Positions 3 through 54,595 of a DNA stretch of 64,000 bases are shown here, in pieces (the stretch's first letter is position 1; each line of letters opens with the position of its first letter). Both the position numbers and the translations under genes were made by a program. The notes under the pieces are model-generated. The model was given only the letters and a program-made list of their open reading frames with translations, was not told the origin of the DNA and searched no databases. The stretch covers positions 16,636 to 80,635 of the forward strand of contig JAFGPN010000015.1 of the NCBI GenBank assembly GCA_016936175.1, in the 5' to 3' direction. The stretch is from Patescibacteria group bacterium (lineage in GTDB: Bacteria > Patescibacteriota > Kazan-3B-28 > UBA10110).

Positions 3-908
3 TTCCAGCGTGTCCACATTGTCCGCGAGGTCTTGACTCGTGTCAGCATTCCGACTTTGGGAGAGTTCCAGGAGTTCATGGACACCAAGGTTCTTCTCTG
101 GCTACCCAAGCCGTCACGCTCGCCTAAACTGCCCAAGGGCAACTGGCAAGCAGAACGGCTGAAGATTCAACAGAAAGCCTGGGTCAAGGTCGGAATTGAT
201 TTGCCACAGGCTCTGTGCGACAAGTTCGTCGACATTCTGAACCAGTGTGGCGCAGAGTTGGTGGCTCAACTTGAGGCCTACGGCTTCATGTTTGTCATCA
301 CAGCGGATGTCACCTGGACTGCCAGCACTTGGCCAACAGGATGGGTTAAGCCCAACGACTGGTACTGGCAAGTGTTGAATGGCGGCAGGGTCATCGGCAG
401 TGATGATAAGCCCATTGAGGCCTGTCGGCTTCTGGGCCATATCCTGCTGATCGACACCCGACAGAAGCCCCGGTACGCCGGTGGCCATCAGCGTTGGAAG
501 GACGATGTGTTCATGGAGGCGCTCATCGGCTACTTGCAGGATCGCAAGCTCCTGCTAGTGAACGATAATGCTGGCCGTGGCAGTCGGTTCTACCTGAGCC
601 GTAACGATTATACCAACGTCGTAGCCCCGGCCTTTGTGGAAGCTCTCCAACAGCTCGGCGTTCCGGTTCAAACGGCTCGCCTCGAATACTGCCCGGAGCA
701 TTCTGCTCTCTGCCAGCTGTTCAACTCGCCCCGAAAGGATAATGGCAAGACGAACACTTGGCTGTGGTTCCAGGAGTACCTGGACTCGTCCGAGGGCTCG
801 CTGGGTGGCGGGGACTCCGACGACGGTGGTCTTGCGGACGTCGGCTACGACGACTCCGGCGGTCGCTGGGACTACGCATCTGGTTCGCTCGTGGCAGTTC
901 TGGCCTAG
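3..908 (+). CDS. DGR target protein, 5'-partial; C-terminal variable region likely in a C-type-lectin-like fold
   Basis: Frame 0 is open from the window edge to TAG at 906-908, so the in-window TTG at 33 is probably not the true start. The last ~40 codons are the VR copy of the TR/VR pair. The C-terminus is Gly/Asp/Ser-rich with an xRWxY motif. Confidence 0.7.
   Translation, partial: FQRVHIVREVLTRVSIPTLGEFQEFMDTKVLLWLPKPSRSPKLPKGNWQAERLKIQQKAWVKVGIDLPQALCDKFVDILNQCGAELVAQLEAYGFMFVITADVTWTASTWPTGWVKPNDWYWQVLNGGRVIGSDDKPIEACRLLGHILLIDTRQKPRYAGGHQRWKDDVFMEALIGYLQDRKLLLVNDNAGRGSRFYLSRNDYTNVVAPAFVEALQQLGVPVQTARLEYCPEHSALCQLFNSPRKDNGKTNTWLWFQEYLDSSEGSLGGGDSDDGGLADVGYDDSGGRWDYASGSLVAVLA
780..899 (+). 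repeat. DGR variable repeat (VR) at the 3' end of the target gene
   Basis: 120 bp matching 1200-1319 except at 15 positions. Every mismatch has A in the 1200-1319 copy and G (13 times), T or C (once each) here. Confidence 0.85.
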
Positions 909-943: not shown

Positions 944-975
944 GGCGGGGTTGCTTGCAACCCCGCCATTTTTGT
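944..975 (+). terminator. GC-rich hairpin plus T-run just downstream of VR and the target stop (terminator, possibly a DGR homing-associated hairpin)
   Basis: ggcggggttgc / gcaaccccgcc perfect inverted repeat followed by atttttg. Confidence 0.55.
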
Positions 976-1199
976 ATAGTTATTTTGATGCGATAGAGCA
1001 TAGATTACTACGGTAACTATCGTCGCTCTCCCTTTTGGGACAGCCAGAGTTTATAGCCTAGGTTGGTTATAGAGAGCGCTAAACCTAAACGGGAAACTGC
1101 GTGTCGACTACTAAGCTTCAATGGGTGAAGCAGATAAAATACAGGCAATCTATACGAGTTTGTTTGCCAGTGACTTTGGGTGGTAGGCGACATTAACGA

Positions 1200-1319
1200 C
1201 TGGACTCGTCCGAGAACTCGCTGAATGGCGGGAACTCCGACAACGGTGGTCTTACGAACGTCGGCTACAACAACTCCGGCAATCGCTGGAACAACGAATC
1301 TGGTTCGCTCGTGGCAGTT
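1200..1319 (+). repeat. DGR template repeat (TR)
   Basis: Non-coding copy of VR. It carries adenines at all 15 VR-variable positions. In the target frame it encodes 10 AAC/AAT (Asn) codons in 40 codons, the classic DGR TR signature. Confidence 0.85.
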
Positions 1320-1362
1320 TCTCGCGTTGGTTAATTAGGGGCGGGGGATCTACTCCCGCCCT

Positions 1363-1741
1363 TTAATTGTATTTCTTGATCCAACCACCAAGCATTTTGC
1401 CGATTTCCTGTAACTTACTCTGCAAAACTAAATAGGATTTTTCGTTCAAAGCCTGAACGTCATATCCCAACCGGATTTGCAACTTCACTAAGTCTAGTAG
1501 TCCACTGGCTCTAATCAGAACTTCCATTCTGCCTCGTTCGGGCGTAATAGGCGCTTGAAGAACACACTCAATTAACTCTAATAGCTTCATCTGGGTCATT
1601 TGACCCAAAGTATACTTCTCAACTTTAGGATATTTCAGAAGATGCCCATGAAACTGTTTGTAAAACTCGTACAGTCTCAGAATAATAGGGATTTCTCCAA
1701 AACCATGAGGGGGGGGGCTTAATAGGAAAGTTATTTTTCAT
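1363..1741 (-). CDS. avd: DGR accessory variability determinant (Avd), four-helix-bundle / 23S rRNA intervening-sequence protein family
   Basis: Translation contains YPKVEKYTLGQ and a C-terminal QEIGKMLGGWIK, both hallmarks of the Avd / four-helix-bundle family. The track ORF (TTG at 1608) is open upstream to 1737. The ATG at 1741-1739 is in frame only if the 9-G tract at 1709-1717 is 8 G, giving 125 aa, Avd-sized. Confidence 0.75.
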
Positions 1742-2794
1742 AATGGTGTTTTTGCGGAGATTATTTCGTTAGAGAACCTATTCTTAGCCTGGACAGAGTT
1801 TCGGAAAGGAAAGCGGAACAAGTCTGATGTCCAAGCATTCGAACTCCATCTCGAAGATAACATATTTGCTCTGCACGAGGAGCTGGCGGATGGCACCTAC
1901 CGCCATGGCGGGTACCAACAGTTTCGTATCTCCGACCCGAAGCCTCGCCTGATCAGCAAGGCATCCGTCCGTGACCGGCTACTCCATCACGCCGTCTACC
2001 GGATTTTATACCCGGCGTTTGATAAAACCTTCATCTTCGATAGCTACTCCTGTCGGAAGAGTAAGGGGACGCATCGGGGCTTCTTTAGGTTAGCAGAGAT
2101 GGCTCGGCAGGTTAGCAGAAACTACACTAGTCCCTGTTGGGCGTTGAAGTTAGATATTCGCAAGTTCTTCGATAGCGTGGATCATGGGGTGTTGATTGGA
2201 CTATTGCGAGAAAAGATGGCAGATACACAGTTGCTAGGATTGTTGGAGAATATTATTGGCAGTTTCCATACTTGTCATGCTGAATTTAGTTCAGCATCTA
2301 AGGTCCTGAAACAAGTTCAGGATGACAGAGTGAGTGGCAAAGGGATGCCACTTGGGAATTTGACTTCTCAATTGTTTGCTAATATCTATCTCGACCCCTT
2401 GGATAAGTTCGCGAAACATTACCTAAAGGCTATGTATTATTTGCGCTATGCCGACGATTTTATCTTTTTGTCGGATAACCTAGACGAACTGATGGGCTAC
2501 CTGGTGGAAGTTGCCCGATTCTTGAAGTCGAAGTTAAAGCTTCAGCTTCATCCCAATAAGCTTATCCTGAGAAAGTTAAAGTGGGGGATAGACTATGTTG
2601 GGTACGTCGCCCTGCCGCATTACAATCTGCCGAGGAGAAAAACTGTCAAACTGATTCTGCGGCAGATTGCCAGACGGAAAGATGCTGGCAATGAAGATGC
2701 ATTAGCCAAAGCCTTGTCCTCGTATCTGGGGTACTTACGGCATGTGGAGGCCCATAAGCTGACAAAACGCATAACTGATACCATAAAGGTATGA
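1709..2794 (+). CDS. DGR reverse transcriptase
   Basis: Open frame from 1709. The N-terminus ENLFLAWTEFRKGKRNK matches RT motif 0. GMPLGNLTSQLFANIYL is the DGR-specific motif 4 ending in SQ, and YLRYADDFIF is the YADD catalytic box. The track's first ATG at 2099 is internal. The ATG at 1705 comes into frame if the G-tract is 8 G. The stop overlaps the uvrC start (ATGA at 2791-2794). Confidence 0.85.
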   Translation, partial: GGGLNRKVIFHNGVFAEIISLENLFLAWTEFRKGKRNKSDVQAFELHLEDNIFALHEELADGTYRHGGYQQFRISDPKPRLISKASVRDRLLHHAVYRILYPAFDKTFIFDSYSCRKSKGTHRGFFRLAEMARQVSRNYTSPCWALKLDIRKFFDSVDHGVLIGLLREKMADTQLLGLLENIIGSFHTCHAEFSSASKVLKQVQDDRVSGKGMPLGNLTSQLFANIYLDPLDKFAKHYLKAMYYLRYADDFIFLSDNLDELMGYLVEVARFLKSKLKLQLHPNKLILRKLKWGIDYVGYVALPHYNLPRRKTVKLILRQIARRKDAGNEDALAKALSSYLGYLRHVEAHKLTKRITDTIKV

Positions 2795-4833
2795 GTAGAG
2801 CGTTTAAGCCAAATTTGCAGAAGATACCGGGAAGCCCCGGAGTGTATTTAATGTATGGAGGGAGATTGCCACGCTCCGCTCGCAATGACGATTCATTTGT
2901 TTCTGGGTCCCCGGGTCACGCCCGAGGACAAGAGGAAAAAGTAATTTATGTGGGAAAAGCACTCAATTTGCGCAAAAGGGTGTCTTCGTACTGGAAACAA
3001 CCGACTAAGCAGAGCACCAAGACGCAAGCGCTGATAAAGCAAGTAACAAGATTAGATTTCATCGCTACTGACACCGAAGCCGAGGCGCTGATATTGGAAA
3101 ACGAGTTAATTAAAAAATACCAGCCGCAATATAATGTGCTATTGCGGGATGACAAATCATTCCAATATATTCGGATTGGGTTAGATCAAAAATTTCCTGA
3201 GATAGCCTCTGTTCGTCGGGTAAACCCAGCGGATATTAAAAGTCGAGACCCTAATCGGCCAAGATACTTTGGCCCTTATACCGCCGGGGGAACAGTAAAA
3301 AATACTCTCAAGCTGTTAAATAGCATATTTCCGCTTTGCGGGAAGGCGCGAGAGTTGAATCAGCATTACGATTCTGGACATCCGCCCGGACAAAAGTCCC
3401 TTCGGACGGGAGCCAGAATGACGGGAGGGGGATTAAAGGCGCCGTGCCTTAACTATCACCTGGGGCGATGTTTGGGGGTGTGTGTCGGCAAGGCCACTGC
3501 ATCCGATTATCGCCATGCTATTAATGAGATAGTAAAGTTTTTGAATGGCGATACCAAAGATGTAATTAAATATCTGCAAATTCGGATGTCGAAGTTATCA
3601 AGCGAGAGGAGATTTGAAGAAGCGGCGCGGTTGAGGGACAGGATAAATTCGTTAGAGCAATTATTTGAACAACAAAAAGTATCTCGGCCAAAAGACCTGG
3701 AACAGGATTTCTTGGGCTGGTTGGTCGAAGGCGAAAAGATGATAGTCTCTCGCGCGCAGGTGCGCGGCGGAAGGCTATTGGGCCAGCAGATATTTGTGTT
3801 GCGCGCACCGTTAAATAATGTGGAGGCTAATCTAATGTCGCAGGCGATTATAACCATTTACGATAAGGTATTCGAAGATCTGCCACGAGAAATTATTGTG
3901 CCGGTGTTGCCAGAAGATGCTGGTGCGATTGAAAAGTGGCTGAGTGATAGGCGAGCCAACCCCACCCAACCTCCCCTTGGGAAGGGGAGGAGTGAAATTA
4001 ATCCCCTCCTTTCCAAGGAGGGGGAGGGGGTGGTTGGGAGGAGAGGAGGGGTTCGTATTTTAGTGCCACAAAAGGGACCTAATCAAAAATTATTATCATT
4101 AGCCCAGCGCAATGCCGCTCAACATTCCGGCTCTTTATTAGATGTCGATGAGCGTTTAGGTGTAAAAAAAGCAATAGTAGACCTAAAAAATCTGTTGAAA
4201 CTAAAAAAATTGGAGCGGCTGGAAGCCTACGATATCTCGCATCTGGGTGGCACCCACACCGTCGGCTCGATGGTGGTGTTTAAAGATGGTAAGCCAGACA
4301 AGAATGGTTATCGGAGATTTAGAATCAAAACTGTGCCCGGGATTGATGATTATGCGGCGTTAGGTGAAGTGATAACGAGAAGGTTGAGCCCTAAGCGCAG
4401 AGCAGATAAAAGATTCGCAGCCGGTTTGCCGGATGCGATATTAATTGATGGCGGCAAAGGTCAACTTAGTTCGGTGTTAAAACACGTTTCGGTGGATGAC
4501 AAAAAGAAGATTCGGTTTTTTAGTTTAGCCAAACGAGAAGAAGAGGTGTTTTTGCCAAACAGATCGGGAGCAGCAGTCCTGTCCAAAAGTTCGGTGGCGT
4601 TGCAGATGTTGCAAAGACTGCGAGACGAGGCGCATCGATTTGCTATTGGTTATCAAACTTCGCTCAAAACCAAACAGTTGGTAGGGGATACAGAAAAGAT
4701 GGTTGGTATCGGAGCCACCACCCGTAAGAAATTGGTGAAACAATTTGGCAGTCTTGCCACTGCCCGATGCGCCAGTGATAGCGAGCTTGCTCAAGTTTTG
4801 AGTCCCAAACAAATCCAATCTTTCCGATCATAA
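2791..4833 (+). CDS. uvrC: excinuclease ABC subunit C (UvrC), with three in-frame repeat-derived insertions
   Basis: GIY-YIG N-terminus (PGVYLMYGG...KVIYVGKALNLRKRVSSY), an LRDDKS motif and the UvrC C-terminal domains. It is 680 aa against about 610 typical. Confidence 0.9.
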   Translation: MSRAFKPNLQKIPGSPGVYLMYGGRLPRSARNDDSFVSGSPGHARGQEEKVIYVGKALNLRKRVSSYWKQPTKQSTKTQALIKQVTRLDFIATDTEAEALILENELIKKYQPQYNVLLRDDKSFQYIRIGLDQKFPEIASVRRVNPADIKSRDPNRPRYFGPYTAGGTVKNTLKLLNSIFPLCGKARELNQHYDSGHPPGQKSLRTGARMTGGGLKAPCLNYHLGRCLGVCVGKATASDYRHAINEIVKFLNGDTKDVIKYLQIRMSKLSSERRFEEAARLRDRINSLEQLFEQQKVSRPKDLEQDFLGWLVEGEKMIVSRAQVRGGRLLGQQIFVLRAPLNNVEANLMSQAIITIYDKVFEDLPREIIVPVLPEDAGAIEKWLSDRRANPTQPPLGKGRSEINPLLSKEGEGVVGRRGGVRILVPQKGPNQKLLSLAQRNAAQHSGSLLDVDERLGVKKAIVDLKNLLKLKKLERLEAYDISHLGGTHTVGSMVVFKDGKPDKNGYRRFRIKTVPGIDDYAALGEVITRRLSPKRRADKRFAAGLPDAILIDGGKGQLSSVLKHVSVDDKKKIRFFSLAKREEEVFLPNRSGAAVLSKSSVALQMLQRLRDEAHRFAIGYQTSLKTKQLVGDTEKMVGIGATTRKKLVKQFGSLATARCASDSELAQVLSPKQIQSFRS

Positions 4834-40330: not shown

Positions 40331-40424
40331 AAATCAATTGTTGTCATTGCGAGCGTAGCGAAGCAATCTCTGAGATTGCCGCGTCGTCCCGACTTTAGTC
40401 GGGACTCCTCGCCATAACCGGTTG

Positions 40425-54338: not shown

Positions 54339-54524
54339 GTCATTCCGGGCTTGACCCGGAATCCATCCTACGCTCTATGAGCTACGGAGGACTGGCGTAA
54401 GTTATTTATTATAGGCCTACGGCAGTAAAGTGTTTTCCCTGGCCGCGACCGGCTACGGGCAGGCAGGATGACATGAGAGGAGATTGCTTCGTCGCTTCGC
54501 TCCTCGCAATGACGAGTTAGGGGG
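54339..54524. repeat. composite of GTCAT-type hairpin repeats (includes a 40-nt segment shared with 27463-27500)
   Basis: gtcattccgggcttgacccggaatcc, then aagttatttattataggcctacggcagtaaagtgtttt, then gcaggatgacat, then gcttcgtcgcttcgctcctcgcaatgac. Confidence 0.65.
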
Positions 54525-54595
54525 GGGACCATCAATAACATGAATGTACTCAAAATCCCGGCAAGCCGGGACGTTGAGTTTGAGTGTAAAATTAA

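What the first reader, a model, noticed from the sequence alone, without database searches (positions are those of the whole stretch)
1363..2794. Unusual DGR architecture: avd inverted, TR upstream of avd, RT translationally coupled to uvrC
Canonical DGRs run target-avd-TR-RT on one strand. Here the order is target/VR (+), TR (+), avd (-), RT (+). Any TR-containing transcript reaching the RT would carry about 380 nt of antisense avd instead of the usual short spacer. The RT stop overlaps the uvrC start (ATGA at 2791-2794), which implies co-expression of the mutagenic RT with a nucleotide-excision-repair nuclease. No second target gene was seen in the window. The true target N-terminus and any further targets lie upstream of position 1.
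Basis: partly seen in the sequence, partly recalled or inferred. Interest (0 to 1): 0.6.

Follow-up and report, generated by a model that had tools for sequence, protein, structure and literature searches.

The report
Ordinary CPR DGR, hypervariable poly-G switch
This is a standard diversity-generating retroelement of the type normal for ultra-small (CPR) bacteria, so its "inverted avd" layout is already described; however, its avd and RT genes overlap head-to-head across a run of nine G's that varies in length between near-identical relatives and here leaves both genes out of frame, which looks like an on/off switch for the mutator.

Summary
All 15 VR/TR mismatches fall on TR adenines.

The layout is not unusual. 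It is "Architecture B3, TR-(avd)-RT" of Wu et al. 2018, found in 90% of CPR DGRs. Of 129 related loci, 124 have avd(-) directly upstream of RT.

The TR probably does not need a transcript running through antisense avd. A covarying structured element sits 5' of the TR, and a strong terminator-like hairpin sits 3' of it.

uvrC adjacency is rare: uvrC in 3 and uvrB in 2 of 111 loci. It lies in a partly syntenic housekeeping neighbourhood.

The two genes overlap head-to-head across a G9 run (1709-1717). G8 or G11 would restore both frames.

A G8-G12 run sits at this exact spot in about 30% of related loci. It differs in length (G9/G10/G11; G10/G11) between sequences that are otherwise at least 99.7% identical, switching the frames on and off. 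I found no report of this in the library I could search.

The parts
3..908 (+). 3' part of the DGR target gene (N-terminus off the window). No Pfam domain. VR at its C-terminus.
   Evidence: ORF 33..908. No Pfam hit. 65% identical orthologue of 368 aa in L003.
781..899 (+). Variable repeat (VR)
   Evidence: 119 nt repeat of the TR. 15 of 15 mismatches are at TR adenines, at codon positions 1 or 2.
944..967 (+). GC-rich hairpin plus T run downstream of VR and the target stop (terminator and/or DGR target-recognition hairpin)
   Evidence: 10-bp stem, 8 GC pairs, followed by ATTTTTGTAT.
1051..1194 (+). Conserved structured element 5' of the TR. Its parts, in order: upstream hairpin plus AGAG(C/T)G; motif A GAAACTGCGTG (1093-1103); long-range helix P0 (1101-1113 with 1181-1193); P1 (1115-1120/1126-1131); invariant ATAAAAT(A/T)CAG (1131-1144); P2 (1144-1148/1164-1168); AGTG (1169-1172).
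   Evidence: P1 and P2: 42 sequences, 91.6% of cells paired versus 56% shuffled; covariation score 0.848 versus 0.239; 0 of 500 shuffles as high. P0: 8-13 bp in most loci with different sequences; 28 of 41 loci at p<=0.05. The single-sequence fold recovers P0 and P1 and a register-shifted P2. No Rfam family matches. The upstream hairpin was seen by eye only.
1201..1319 (+). Template repeat (TR)
   Evidence: 28 adenines, of which 15 are substituted in the VR.
1332..1369 (+). Strong hairpin 13 nt after the TR (GC core 1337-1363) followed by a U-rich tail. Candidate Avd-binding stem-loop and/or TR-RNA terminator. Abuts the avd stop codon.
   Evidence: -22.2 kcal/mol, z -3.1. Terminator-like by scan. 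79 of 97 related loci have a hairpin of <= -15 kcal/mol after the TR. Stem-loops downstream of the TR are reported for 207 of 278 Avd-type DGRs (bioRxiv 10.1101/2023.10.23.563531).
1363..1741 (-). avd (bAvd). ATG at 1741..1739, frame broken inside the C9 run. With C8 it reads MKNNFPIKPPPHGFGEIPIILRLYEFY... (125 aa).
   Evidence: PF22296, E 5.7e-16 on the corrected protein. Frame analysis. The same N-terminus, MENNFP.., is in frame in L007.
1709..1717 (.). G9/C9 homopolymer inside the head-to-head avd/RT overlap. It reads GGG in the RT frame and PPP in the avd frame. Candidate contingency (phase-variation) tract, here in the out-of-frame state.
   Evidence: Longest G/C run in the 64 kb window. 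Identical G9 in an independent Logan contig. G8-G12 at the same site in 39 of about 130 non-duplicate relatives: 41 junction runs versus 7 elsewhere in 1.05 Mb. Length polymorphism between near-identical loci.
1705..2794 (+). DGR reverse transcriptase. The conserved frame runs 1709-2794. Candidate starts ATG 1705 (also 1642 and 1648) are in frame only with G8 or G11. YADD and LGNLTSQLFANIYL motifs are intact.
   Evidence: RVT_1, E 1.6e-22. 65-77% identical to Kazan/Patescibacteria RTs. Frame analysis.
2275..2335 (+). In-frame insertion made of two small palindromes inside RT (HTCHAEFSSASKVLKQVQDDRVS), absent from some homologues
   Evidence: Sequence. P0009 and P0010 lack it; P0002, P0004 and P0006 carry other inserts at the same site.
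2791..4833 (+). uvrC. Its start overlaps the RT stop (ATGA).
   Evidence: GIY-YIG, UVR, UvrC_RNaseH and UvrC_RNaseH_dom. Overlap seen.

Best explanation
The window holds a normal CPR-clade DGR of the published B3 architecture, target/VR - TR - (avd) - RT.

Shown:
- an adenine-specific VR/TR pair;
- bAvd and a DGR-type RT;
- the clade-wide divergent, abutting or overlapping avd/RT arrangement;
- a covarying structured element immediately 5' of the TR and a strong hairpin 3' of it;
- a G9 run in the avd/RT overlap that puts both genes out of frame;
- the same tract at the same site in about 30% of relatives, with length differences between near-identical sequences that toggle the frames.

Inferred:
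1. The TR is expressed as its own roughly 320-nt non-coding RNA (about 1051-1370). Its 5' multi-helix domain and 3' hairpin recruit RT-Avd. No transcript through antisense avd is needed, since DGR components work in trans.
2. The poly-G tract acts as a slippage-prone switch. DNA slipped-strand mispairing is the main candidate, with possible help from transcriptional or ribosomal slippage. It gates production of full-length Avd and RT together. In this genome the consensus state is OFF, one nucleotide from ON, and past activity is recorded in the VR.
3. The 4-nt RT/uvrC overlap is compact-genome operon packing at a conserved chromosomal position, not a mechanistic link.
For: Architecture:
- 124 of 129 loci have avd(-) immediately upstream of RT, 89 of 98 have TR(+) just beyond the avd stop, and 80 of 98 show the full order.
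- The start codons are head-to-head: 'CATG' or 'CATATG' in 22 of the 65 tract-less loci where both starts could be assigned, and within -6 to +2 nt in 41 of those 65.

TR RNA:
- P1 and P2 covariation: 0 of 500 shuffles reach the observed score.
- P0 is a long-range helix of 8-13 bp whose sequence differs between loci.
- P0 encloses the ATAAAAT motif, so that motif is transcribed rather than acting as a promoter.
- G-U pairs outnumber A-C pairs (8 versus 2 at one pair), which favours the + strand.
- Hairpins after the TR occur in 79 of 97 loci, and about half have a T-rich tail.

Poly-G tract:
- In the window, G9 to G8 gives RT MRGGLNRKVIFHNGVFAEIISLENL and Avd MKNNFPIKPPPHGFGEIP.
- There are 41 tracts in the roughly 18 kb of junction windows versus 7 in the remaining roughly 1.03 Mb.
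- Tract lengths are 8 to 12 nt. Avd is in frame in 8 loci, needs -1 in 17 and needs +1 in 10. RT and avd need the same correction in 25 of 28 loci.
- Berkelbacteria lineage: G9 in L091, L168 and L169 (in frame, 354-aa RT); G10 in L089, L165 and L166; G11 in L167. These are at least 99.7% identical over about 2.2 kb, except L169 (98.8%). In five of six comparisons to L091 the tract is the only length difference.
- Kazan lineage: L010 (G11) versus L170 (G10) has 0 mismatches in 2487 nt and a single indel, which is the tract.
- Each state is seen on several contigs.
- The tract is scattered over the RT tree, with at least 15 state changes.

uvrC.
Against: - No reads or transcripts were available, so tract heterogeneity within this population, the TR-RNA ends and Avd/RT expression are all untested.
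- For the window's own lineage only G9 was seen: the window plus one Logan contig, possibly built from the same reads.
- The L003 lineage shows the same out-of-frame G9 in four independent assemblies. This fits 'default OFF', but it equally fits expression by RNA-level or ribosomal slippage.
- In the G10 state of the Berkelbacteria lineage a GTG at the tract edge could still start RT, so the switch may act mainly on Avd.
- Long G runs are error-prone in sequencing.
- The 5' element could be a regulatory RNA rather than an RT-Avd scaffold.
- NER genes next to RT are more frequent than random expectation (5 of 111).
Confidence: 0.7

Rival explanations
1. This is an atypical DGR whose TR must be read through about 380 nt of antisense avd to reach RT, and whose RT is functionally co-expressed with the NER nuclease UvrC, which helps process the cDNA or target.
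For: The ATGA overlap is real. uvrC lies directly downstream of RT and co-oriented in three divergent loci (window; L092 with a 5-nt gap; L016 with a 135-nt gap). uvrB does so in L005 and L009. That is 5 of 111 neighbours against about 0.3 expected. RNase HII (2 loci) and PolA (1 locus) are also neighbours.
Against: The architecture is the clade norm. 95% of loci have no NER neighbour. The neighbourhood (uvrC, ligA, gatCA) is partly syntenic across loci, so the cases are not independent. The paper on the BPP-1 DGR reconstituted in E. coli highlights ExoI and contains no mention of uvr genes. A terminator-like hairpin follows the TR.
Confidence: 0.1
2. The tract lengths are sequencing or assembly errors at a long G run. 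The real genes are intact (true length 8 or 11 here) and nothing switches.
For: Homopolymers of 9-12 G are error-prone. About three quarters of assemblies are out of frame, close to the 2/3 expected from random length calls.
Against: The same G9 appears in two assemblers' output for this locus, and in four independent assemblies of the L003 lineage. Each of G9 and G10 recurs on 6-8 contigs in one lineage. A tract maintained at one site across RTs only 46-73% identical to the window's, against 7 runs elsewhere in 1 Mb, needs explaining whatever the exact lengths are.
Confidence: 0.12
3. Programmed recoding. The out-of-frame DNA length is the functional state, and full-length Avd and RT are made at a low level by transcriptional slippage on the G/C run, or by +1 ribosomal slippage at CCC-C / GGG-G.
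For: The runs are at least 9 nt, a length at which slippage is known (general knowledge). A stable out-of-frame G9 is seen in the L003 lineage. 'One nucleotide too many' is the commonest state, 17 of 35. It would give the low expression expected for a mutagenic RT. It is not exclusive of DNA-level switching.
Against: The direction is not conserved: 17 loci need -1, 10 need +1 and 8 are in frame. Near-identical loci differ at the DNA level. Many relatives have no tract and plain ATG starts.
Confidence: 0.25
4. The cassette is a decaying, dead DGR whose avd and RT are pseudogenes.
For: Both reading frames are broken in the assembly.
Against: A single 1-nt change restores both frames, and there are no other stops. 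The catalytic YADD and SQ motifs are intact. VR and TR are identical at all 91 non-A positions. The same 'lesion' recurs at the same site in dozens of otherwise intact cassettes.
Confidence: 0.08

Closest known systems
CPR/DPANN DGRs of Architecture B3, TR-(avd)-RT (Wu et al. 2018, PMC5758913; the CPR set of Paul et al. 2017; DGR clade 2 of Roux et al. 2021, PMC8144416)
   Same: Same gene order and strands. The target has no known domain and carries a C-terminal VR. Same bAvd and RT family; the best RT hits are Kazan, Berkelbacteria and Patescibacteria.
   Different: Nothing at the level of architecture. The poly-G tract in the avd/RT overlap and the 5' structured element are not mentioned in the papers I could read. 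Paul et al. 2017 was not available.
Bordetella phage BPP-1 DGR (mtd-avd-TR-brt), the prototype
   Same: Adenine-specific TR-to-VR information flow. Avd plus RT. A GC hairpin downstream of the VR. A stem-loop downstream of the TR, as in the Avd-binding stem-loop described by Handa et al..
   Different: avd is on the opposite strand, between TR and RT. Only about 43 nt separate the TR from the avd stop, instead of a 140-nt spacer. The conserved structured RNA lies 5' of the TR. The avd and RT starts overlap head-to-head.
Poly-G/C contingency loci (simple-sequence-repeat phase variation) of Neisseria, Campylobacter, Haemophilus and Mycobacterium
   Same: A G/C homopolymer of 8-12 nt near the 5' end of coding sequence. 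Length differs between otherwise identical sequences. Each +/-1 step toggles the reading frame.
   Different: One tract lies in two divergent, antisense-overlapping genes and shifts both at once. The controlled function is itself a targeted hypermutation machine. The host is a CPR bacterium. Switching rate and reversibility are unmeasured.
Retron msr-msd non-coding RNA
   Same: A structured RNA domain 5' of the reverse-transcribed template, bracketed by long-range pairing. This is an analogy only.
   Different: There is no evidence here for 2'-OH priming from the 5' domain. The RT family and the biological output differ.

Membership tests
Diversity-generating retroelement (DGR), Architecture B3 | Reverse transcriptase of the DGR clade (RVT_1 with the ...LGNLTSQxFAN... 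and YxDD motifs) | tested here: met
   PF00078, E 1.6e-22. LGNLTSQLFANIYL and YADD are in the sequence. 65-77% identical to RTs that sit in TR/VR cassettes.
Diversity-generating retroelement (DGR), Architecture B3 | TR/VR repeat pair whose differences are confined to TR adenines, with the VR inside a protein-coding target | tested here: met
   119 nt. 15 of 15 mismatches at TR adenines, codon positions 1 or 2. The VR is at the C-terminus of ORF ..908.
Diversity-generating retroelement (DGR), Architecture B3 | Avd accessory gene on the strand opposite to TR and RT, lying between them | tested here: met
   bAvd PF22296 on the minus strand at 1363-1741. Same layout in 124 of 129 relatives. Definition taken.
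Diversity-generating retroelement (DGR), Architecture B3 | Intact avd and RT reading frames (putatively functional cassette) | tested here: not met
   With G9 neither gene has an in-frame canonical start. One nucleotide fewer restores both.
Diversity-generating retroelement (DGR), Architecture B3 | IMH-like invariant 3' end of VR/TR and a GC hairpin downstream of the VR | tested here: inconclusive
   The last 22 nt of VR and TR are identical. A GC hairpin lies at 944-967, 45 nt after the VR. No functional definition of the IMH is available for this clade.
Diversity-generating retroelement (DGR), Architecture B3 | Ongoing mutagenic retrohoming | not testable with these tools
   Needs read-level VR heterogeneity or an experiment.
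Simple-sequence-repeat phase variation (contingency locus) | Homopolymer of at least 8 nt within or at the 5' end of coding sequence, over-represented at that site | tested here: met
   G9 at 1709-1717. 41 tracts at this junction versus 7 G/C runs of at least 8 nt in about 1 Mb of flanks.
Simple-sequence-repeat phase variation (contingency locus) | Tract length varies between otherwise (near-)identical genomes | tested here: met
   Met in two related lineages: G9/G10/G11 at >=99.7% identity, and G10/G11 with 0 mismatches in 2487 nt. For the window's own lineage only G9 was seen, so it is inconclusive for this genome itself.
Simple-sequence-repeat phase variation (contingency locus) | Length change switches the gene product on and off | tested here: met
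   By sequence only. In-frame and out-of-frame ORFs, and the corresponding 354/343/348-aa and 361/337-aa gene calls.
Simple-sequence-repeat phase variation (contingency locus) | High-frequency, reversible switching within a clonal population | not testable with these tools
   Needs reads or culture.
Programmed frameshifting / transcriptional slippage | A conserved, single direction of shift needed across homologues | tested here: not met
   17 loci need -1 nt, 10 need +1 nt and 8 are in frame.
BPP-1-type DGR RNA (upstream segment - TR - about 140-nt spacer) | Stem-loop just downstream of the TR | tested here: met
   1332-1369, -22.2 kcal/mol, z -3.1. Present in 79 of 97 relatives. Compare.
BPP-1-type DGR RNA (upstream segment - TR - about 140-nt spacer) | Non-coding spacer of about 140 nt between the TR and the RT gene | tested here: not met
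   43 nt from the TR end to the avd stop. The next 380 nt are antisense avd.
Translationally coupled RT-uvrC unit as a DGR feature | The adjacency is conserved among related DGRs | tested here: not met
   uvrC follows RT in 3 of 111 loci and uvrB in 2 of 111. Only the window has a stop/start overlap.

The most novel reading that the evidence does not exclude
The G/C homopolymer in the avd/RT head-to-head overlap is a selected, reversible contingency switch. It turns the whole DGR mutator (Avd and RT together) on in a minority of cells. If so, a targeted hypermutation system in CPR bacteria is itself gated by a hypermutable tract. Separately, in this clade the RT-Avd-recruiting RNA scaffold has moved to a covarying multi-helix domain 5' of the TR, replacing the 3' spacer of the Bordetella paradigm.
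Probability: 0.45. Interest if true: 0.7.

Novelty: new variant of a known kind. Interest (0 to 1): 0.5.

Why it matters
As submitted, the finding is a textbook CPR DGR and adds nothing new.

What matters is the tract. How DGR mutagenesis is kept in check is largely unknown. A 1-nt-per-step switch sitting in both essential genes would give stochastic, heritable and reversible control of hypermutation in organisms that cannot be cultured.

It also has a practical consequence. Gene callers truncate or miss avd and RT in roughly three quarters of tract-bearing loci. Examples are RTs called from 'MAWTEF...' and Avd calls of 76-95 aa. DGR surveys may therefore misclassify these cassettes as defective.

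The 5' structured element gives a concrete RNA to test in the cis-priming model outside Bordetella phage.

Tried and rejected
1. I first thought the RT start was ATG 1743 with a slip in the T5 run (1749-1753), or an ATT start at 1733 or 1760. I rejected this after relatives showed in-frame starts upstream of the G run (L028, L037, L049, L091).
2. I considered ATAAAAT (1134-1140) as the TR promoter -10 box. I rejected this because the covarying helix P0 encloses it.
A second MAFFT alignment (A5) misaligned motif A, so P0 was tested with a script instead.
4. An exact-protein look-up of the window's UvrC found nothing. The metagenome scan found no RT closer than 72% identity. Tract polymorphism therefore could not be tested in the window's own lineage.
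5. Paul et al. 2017 (Nat Microbiol) is not held.
6. Rfam gave only a spurious mir-4660 hit on a palindromic insert in uvrC.
7. The sigma-70 scan found nothing convincing for the TR, avd or RT promoters.
8. The RT and avd needing the same frame correction is not independent evidence. Any indel in an antisense overlap shifts both genes.
Full report
**Observation.**
- The region contains a bona fide DGR. VR (781-899) and TR (1201-1319) are 119-nt direct repeats on the + strand. They differ at 15 positions, and every one is an adenine in the TR. All fall at codon positions 1 or 2 of the target frame, and 13 are A->G. All 91 non-A positions are identical.
- A TR-with-A-as-wildcard scan finds no other VR in the 64 kb window.
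- Pfam places bAvd (PF22296, 5.7e-16) on the minus strand at 1363-1741. RVT_1 (1.6e-22) is on the + strand and ends at 2794. A four-domain UvrC runs 2791-4833. The RT stop (TGA 2792-2794) and the uvrC start (ATG 2791-2793) therefore overlap as ATGA.
- The target is cut by the window edge. Its 65%-identical orthologue in locus L003 is 368 aa, so about 65 codons are missing.

**The architecture is not unusual.**
- Wu et al. 2018 (PMC5758913) define Architecture B3 as "TR-(avd)-RT", with parentheses marking the reverse strand. [quoted passage not shown]
- I fetched 80 loci from GTDB genomes and 80 from metagenomes with relatives of this RT. They are Kazan, Berkelbacteria, Saccharimonadia, Parcubacteria and DPANN MAGs.
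- Among non-duplicate loci with enough upstream DNA, 124 of 129 have avd on the minus strand immediately upstream of RT. TR(+) lies just beyond the avd stop in 89 of 98, and 80 of 98 show the full VR(+)-TR(+)-avd(-)-RT(+) order.
- The median VR-to-TR gap is 338 nt, and the TR-to-avd gap is about 48 nt.
- The A->G excess is also clade-wide: 941 G, 393 T and 278 C.

**How the TR is probably expressed.** Comparative analysis points elsewhere.
- Upstream of the TR there is a conserved element on the TR strand. In order it contains:
  - motif A, GAnACTnC(G/T)TG;
  - a long-range helix P0;
  - hairpin P1;
  - the nearly invariant ATAAAAT(A/T)CAG (window 1131-1144);
  - hairpin P2;
  - (A/G)GTG;
  - the 3' strand of P0;
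  - and then, 8-12 nt later, the TR.
- On 42 sequences, P1 and P2 are 91.6% paired against 56% in shuffles. The covariation score is 0.848 against 0.239, no shuffle of 500 reaches it, and register-slid controls score 0.11-0.24.
- P0 is 8-13 bp with quite different sequences in different loci, for example TTGCCTCT/AGAGGCAA and GTGCCGCCTATT/GATAGGCGGCAC. It beats shuffles at p<=0.05 in 28 of 41 loci.
- Because P0 encloses the ATAAAAT motif, that motif is part of the RNA and is not a promoter.
- The window's own sequence (1090-1200) folds into P0 and P1, plus a P2 shifted by two nucleotides from the comparative register.
- No Rfam family matches.
- Downstream, 13 nt after the TR, lies a hairpin of -22.2 kcal/mol (1332-1369, z -3.1). 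It is followed by a U-rich tail and abuts the avd stop.
- 79 of 97 relatives have a hairpin of <= -15 kcal/mol there, and about half have a T-rich tail.
- Handa et al. (bioRxiv 10.1101/2023.10.23.563531) reported putative Avd-binding stem-loops just downstream of the TR in 207 of 278 Avd-type DGRs, CPR included. They examined only 40 nt upstream of the TR.
- I infer a stand-alone TR RNA of about 320 nt with a 5' scaffold and a 3' hairpin. This is not shown; no transcript data were available.

- Neither avd nor RT is an intact ORF. The RT frame is closed by TGA at 1706-1708 and has no ATG, GTG or TTG until 2099. The avd frame has none until TTG 1608, which would remove helix 1.
- Close RT homologues in the protein database show the same symptom. 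Gene calls start at 'MAWTEF...', or run far upstream through '...GGGL.RKIIFH..F.EIISLENL'.
- Both defects map to one G9 run at 1709-1717. It reads GGG in the RT frame and PPP in the avd frame.
- With G8 (or G11), ATG 1705 gives RT as MRGGLNRKVIFHNGVFAEIISLENL..., and ATG 1741 (minus strand) gives Avd as MKNNFPIKPPPHGFGEIPIILRLYEFY... The two genes then overlap head-to-head by at least 36 nt.
- The same Avd N-terminus (MENNFP...) is in frame in L007, which has no tract.
- Head-to-head starts are the clade rule. Both starts could be assigned in 65 of the 91 tract-less loci. Eleven of these read CATATG, eleven read CATG, and 41 of the 65 lie within -6 to +2 nt.

**The tract is conserved, site-specific and length-polymorphic.**
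- Of about 130 non-duplicate loci, 39 carry G8-G12 at exactly this junction. The lengths are 8 (2 loci), 9 (20), 10 (11), 11 (4) and 12 (2).
- In 1.05 Mb of fetched sequence there are 41 such runs in the 120-nt junction windows and only 7 G/C runs of at least 8 nt elsewhere. Four of those 7 lie at a second recurrent site inside RT.
- In the 64 kb window, G9 is the longest G/C run.
- On an NJ tree of the RTs, tract presence needs at least 15 state changes, so it is old and/or repeatedly gained and lost.
- Frame state by nearest ATG: avd is in frame in 8 loci, needs -1 nt in 17 and needs +1 nt in 10. RT and avd need the same correction in 25 of 28 loci. That agreement is expected for any indel in an antisense overlap and is not independent evidence.
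- Length polymorphism between near-identical sequences is direct. In a Berkelbacteria lineage, about 2.2 kb is at least 99.7% identical (L169 is 98.8%). There, L091, L168 and L169 have G9 (RT in frame, 354 aa, MNKRNFNWGELRGGGLNRR...). L089, L165 and L166 have G10 (RT called from a GTG at the tract, 343 aa; avd called at 76 aa). L167 has G11 (348 aa).
- The tract is the only length difference in five of six comparisons to L091. The G9-type and G10-type proteins occur on 6 and 8 contigs respectively.
- In a Kazan lineage, L010 (G11, out of frame) and L170 (G10, in frame, 361-aa RT) have 0 mismatches over 2487 nt and one indel, which is the tract.
- For this window, an independent Logan contig from SRR13394437 is identical, including the G9.
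- The L003 lineage has the same out-of-frame G9 in four assemblies.
- Two full-text searches combining DGR terms with homopolymer, poly-G, phase variation, contingency and frameshift returned no relevant paper. Paul et al. 2017 could not be read.

**Interpretation of the tract.**
- The pattern is that of a simple-sequence contingency locus. It is a hypermutable homopolymer placed where each +/-1 step shifts both essential DGR proteins. In this genome the consensus is one step from ON.
- DNA-level slipped-strand switching is the most economical reading.
- Transcriptional or ribosomal slippage on the same run may contribute. The stable out-of-frame G9 in the L003 lineage supports that possibility. 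The lack of a conserved shift direction argues against a purely programmed recoding signal.
- Sequencing error cannot be excluded without reads. It does not explain the conservation of the tract, nor the recurrence of each length on many contigs.
- Simple decay is unlikely. One nucleotide restores both genes, the catalytic motifs are intact, and VR and TR are otherwise perfectly matched.

**The uvrC link.**
- The overlap is real. Of 111 first-downstream ORFs scanned with Pfam, only 3 are UvrC (window; L092 with a 5-nt gap; L016 with a 135-nt gap) and 2 are UvrB (L005, L009). Tyrosine recombinases (4), RNase HII (2), RNase III (2) and one PolA also occur.
- Five NER neighbours is more than the roughly 0.3 expected at random, but the cases are not independent.
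- The window's neighbourhood is uvrC, a sigma-r4/HARE-HTH protein, a HerA/TrwB-like ATPase, ligA, purA and gatA. It is partly syntenic with other DGR loci: ligA near RT in L027, L110, L031 and L113, and gatCA directly after RT in the Berkelbacteria lineage.
- That points to a conserved chromosomal position.
- The paper on the E. coli reconstitution of the BPP-1 DGR highlights ExoI and does not mention uvr genes.
- I treat a functional RT-NER coupling as a low-probability lead.

**Verdict.** 'Unusual architecture' is already known as B3, and RT-uvrC coupling is incidental or at most a weak lead.

Noticed in passing
window 2275-2335 (RT); 2860-2935, 3361-3425, 3955-4050 (uvrC): Small palindromic, MITE-like elements are inserted in frame in coding sequence. 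Their translations are RT 'HTCHAEFSSASKVLKQVQDDRVS'; uvrC 'RLPRSARNDDSFVSGSPGHARGQEE' (inside the GIY-YIG hairpin); 'HYDSGHPPGQKSLRTGARMTGGG'; and 'RANPTQPPLGKGRSEINPLLSKEGEGVVGRRGG'. RT homologues carry different inserts, or none, at the same site (P0002 'SVWIPGRARNDGG', a long insert in P0004, none in P0009/P0010). The weak Rfam 'mir-4660' hit at 3958-4035 is one of these palindromes. The '...CGCTCGCAATGAC' core recurs at 40343, and a variant at about 54500.
   Followed up: partly
L038, L053, L068, L161: +521 to +633 nt from the RT anchor: There is a second recurrent poly-G site (G8-G12; G12 in L068) inside the RT coding region, near the GGGKG(M/L)PLGN segment. It occurs in loci that lack the junction tract. 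This may be another frame-switching site.
   Followed up: no
L031, L035, L040, L044, L047, L053, L057, L059, L064, L068, L080 and others (avd/RT junction): In tract-less relatives the divergent avd and RT start codons abut or overlap as CATATG or CATG. Each gene's promoter and ribosome-binding site must therefore lie inside the other gene.
   Followed up: partly
first ORF downstream of RT in 111 loci (alignment A6): DNA-repair and nucleic-acid-processing genes are frequent immediate neighbours of these DGRs: UvrC 3, UvrB 2, RNase HII 2, RNase III 2, PolA 1, tyrosine recombinases 4. ligA and gatCA recur nearby. I did not resolve whether this reflects conserved position or function.
   Followed up: partly
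window 781-899 versus 1201-1319, and all related loci: There is a strong A->G bias at mutated TR adenines: 13 of 15 here, and 58% clade-wide (941 G, 393 T, 278 C).
   Followed up: partly
window 54520-54527: This is the only other G run of at least 8 nt in the window (G8). It is intergenic, directly after a '...CTCCTCGCAATGACGAG' repeat copy.
   Followed up: no
window 1051-1080; L002-L004, L010 at equivalent positions: A further covarying hairpin, followed by a conserved (A/G)AGAG(C/T)G motif, lies upstream of motif A of the TR-leader element. The conserved RNA may therefore start near 1051. This was seen by eye in alignment A3 and was not tested statistically.
   Followed up: no
window 1191-1196 and 1331-1336: A 6-nt complementarity, ATTAAC/GTTAAT, links the sequence just upstream of the TR to the sequence just downstream. 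It could correspond to the 'cPRT stop duplex' described for other DGRs. It was seen by eye only.
   Followed up: no
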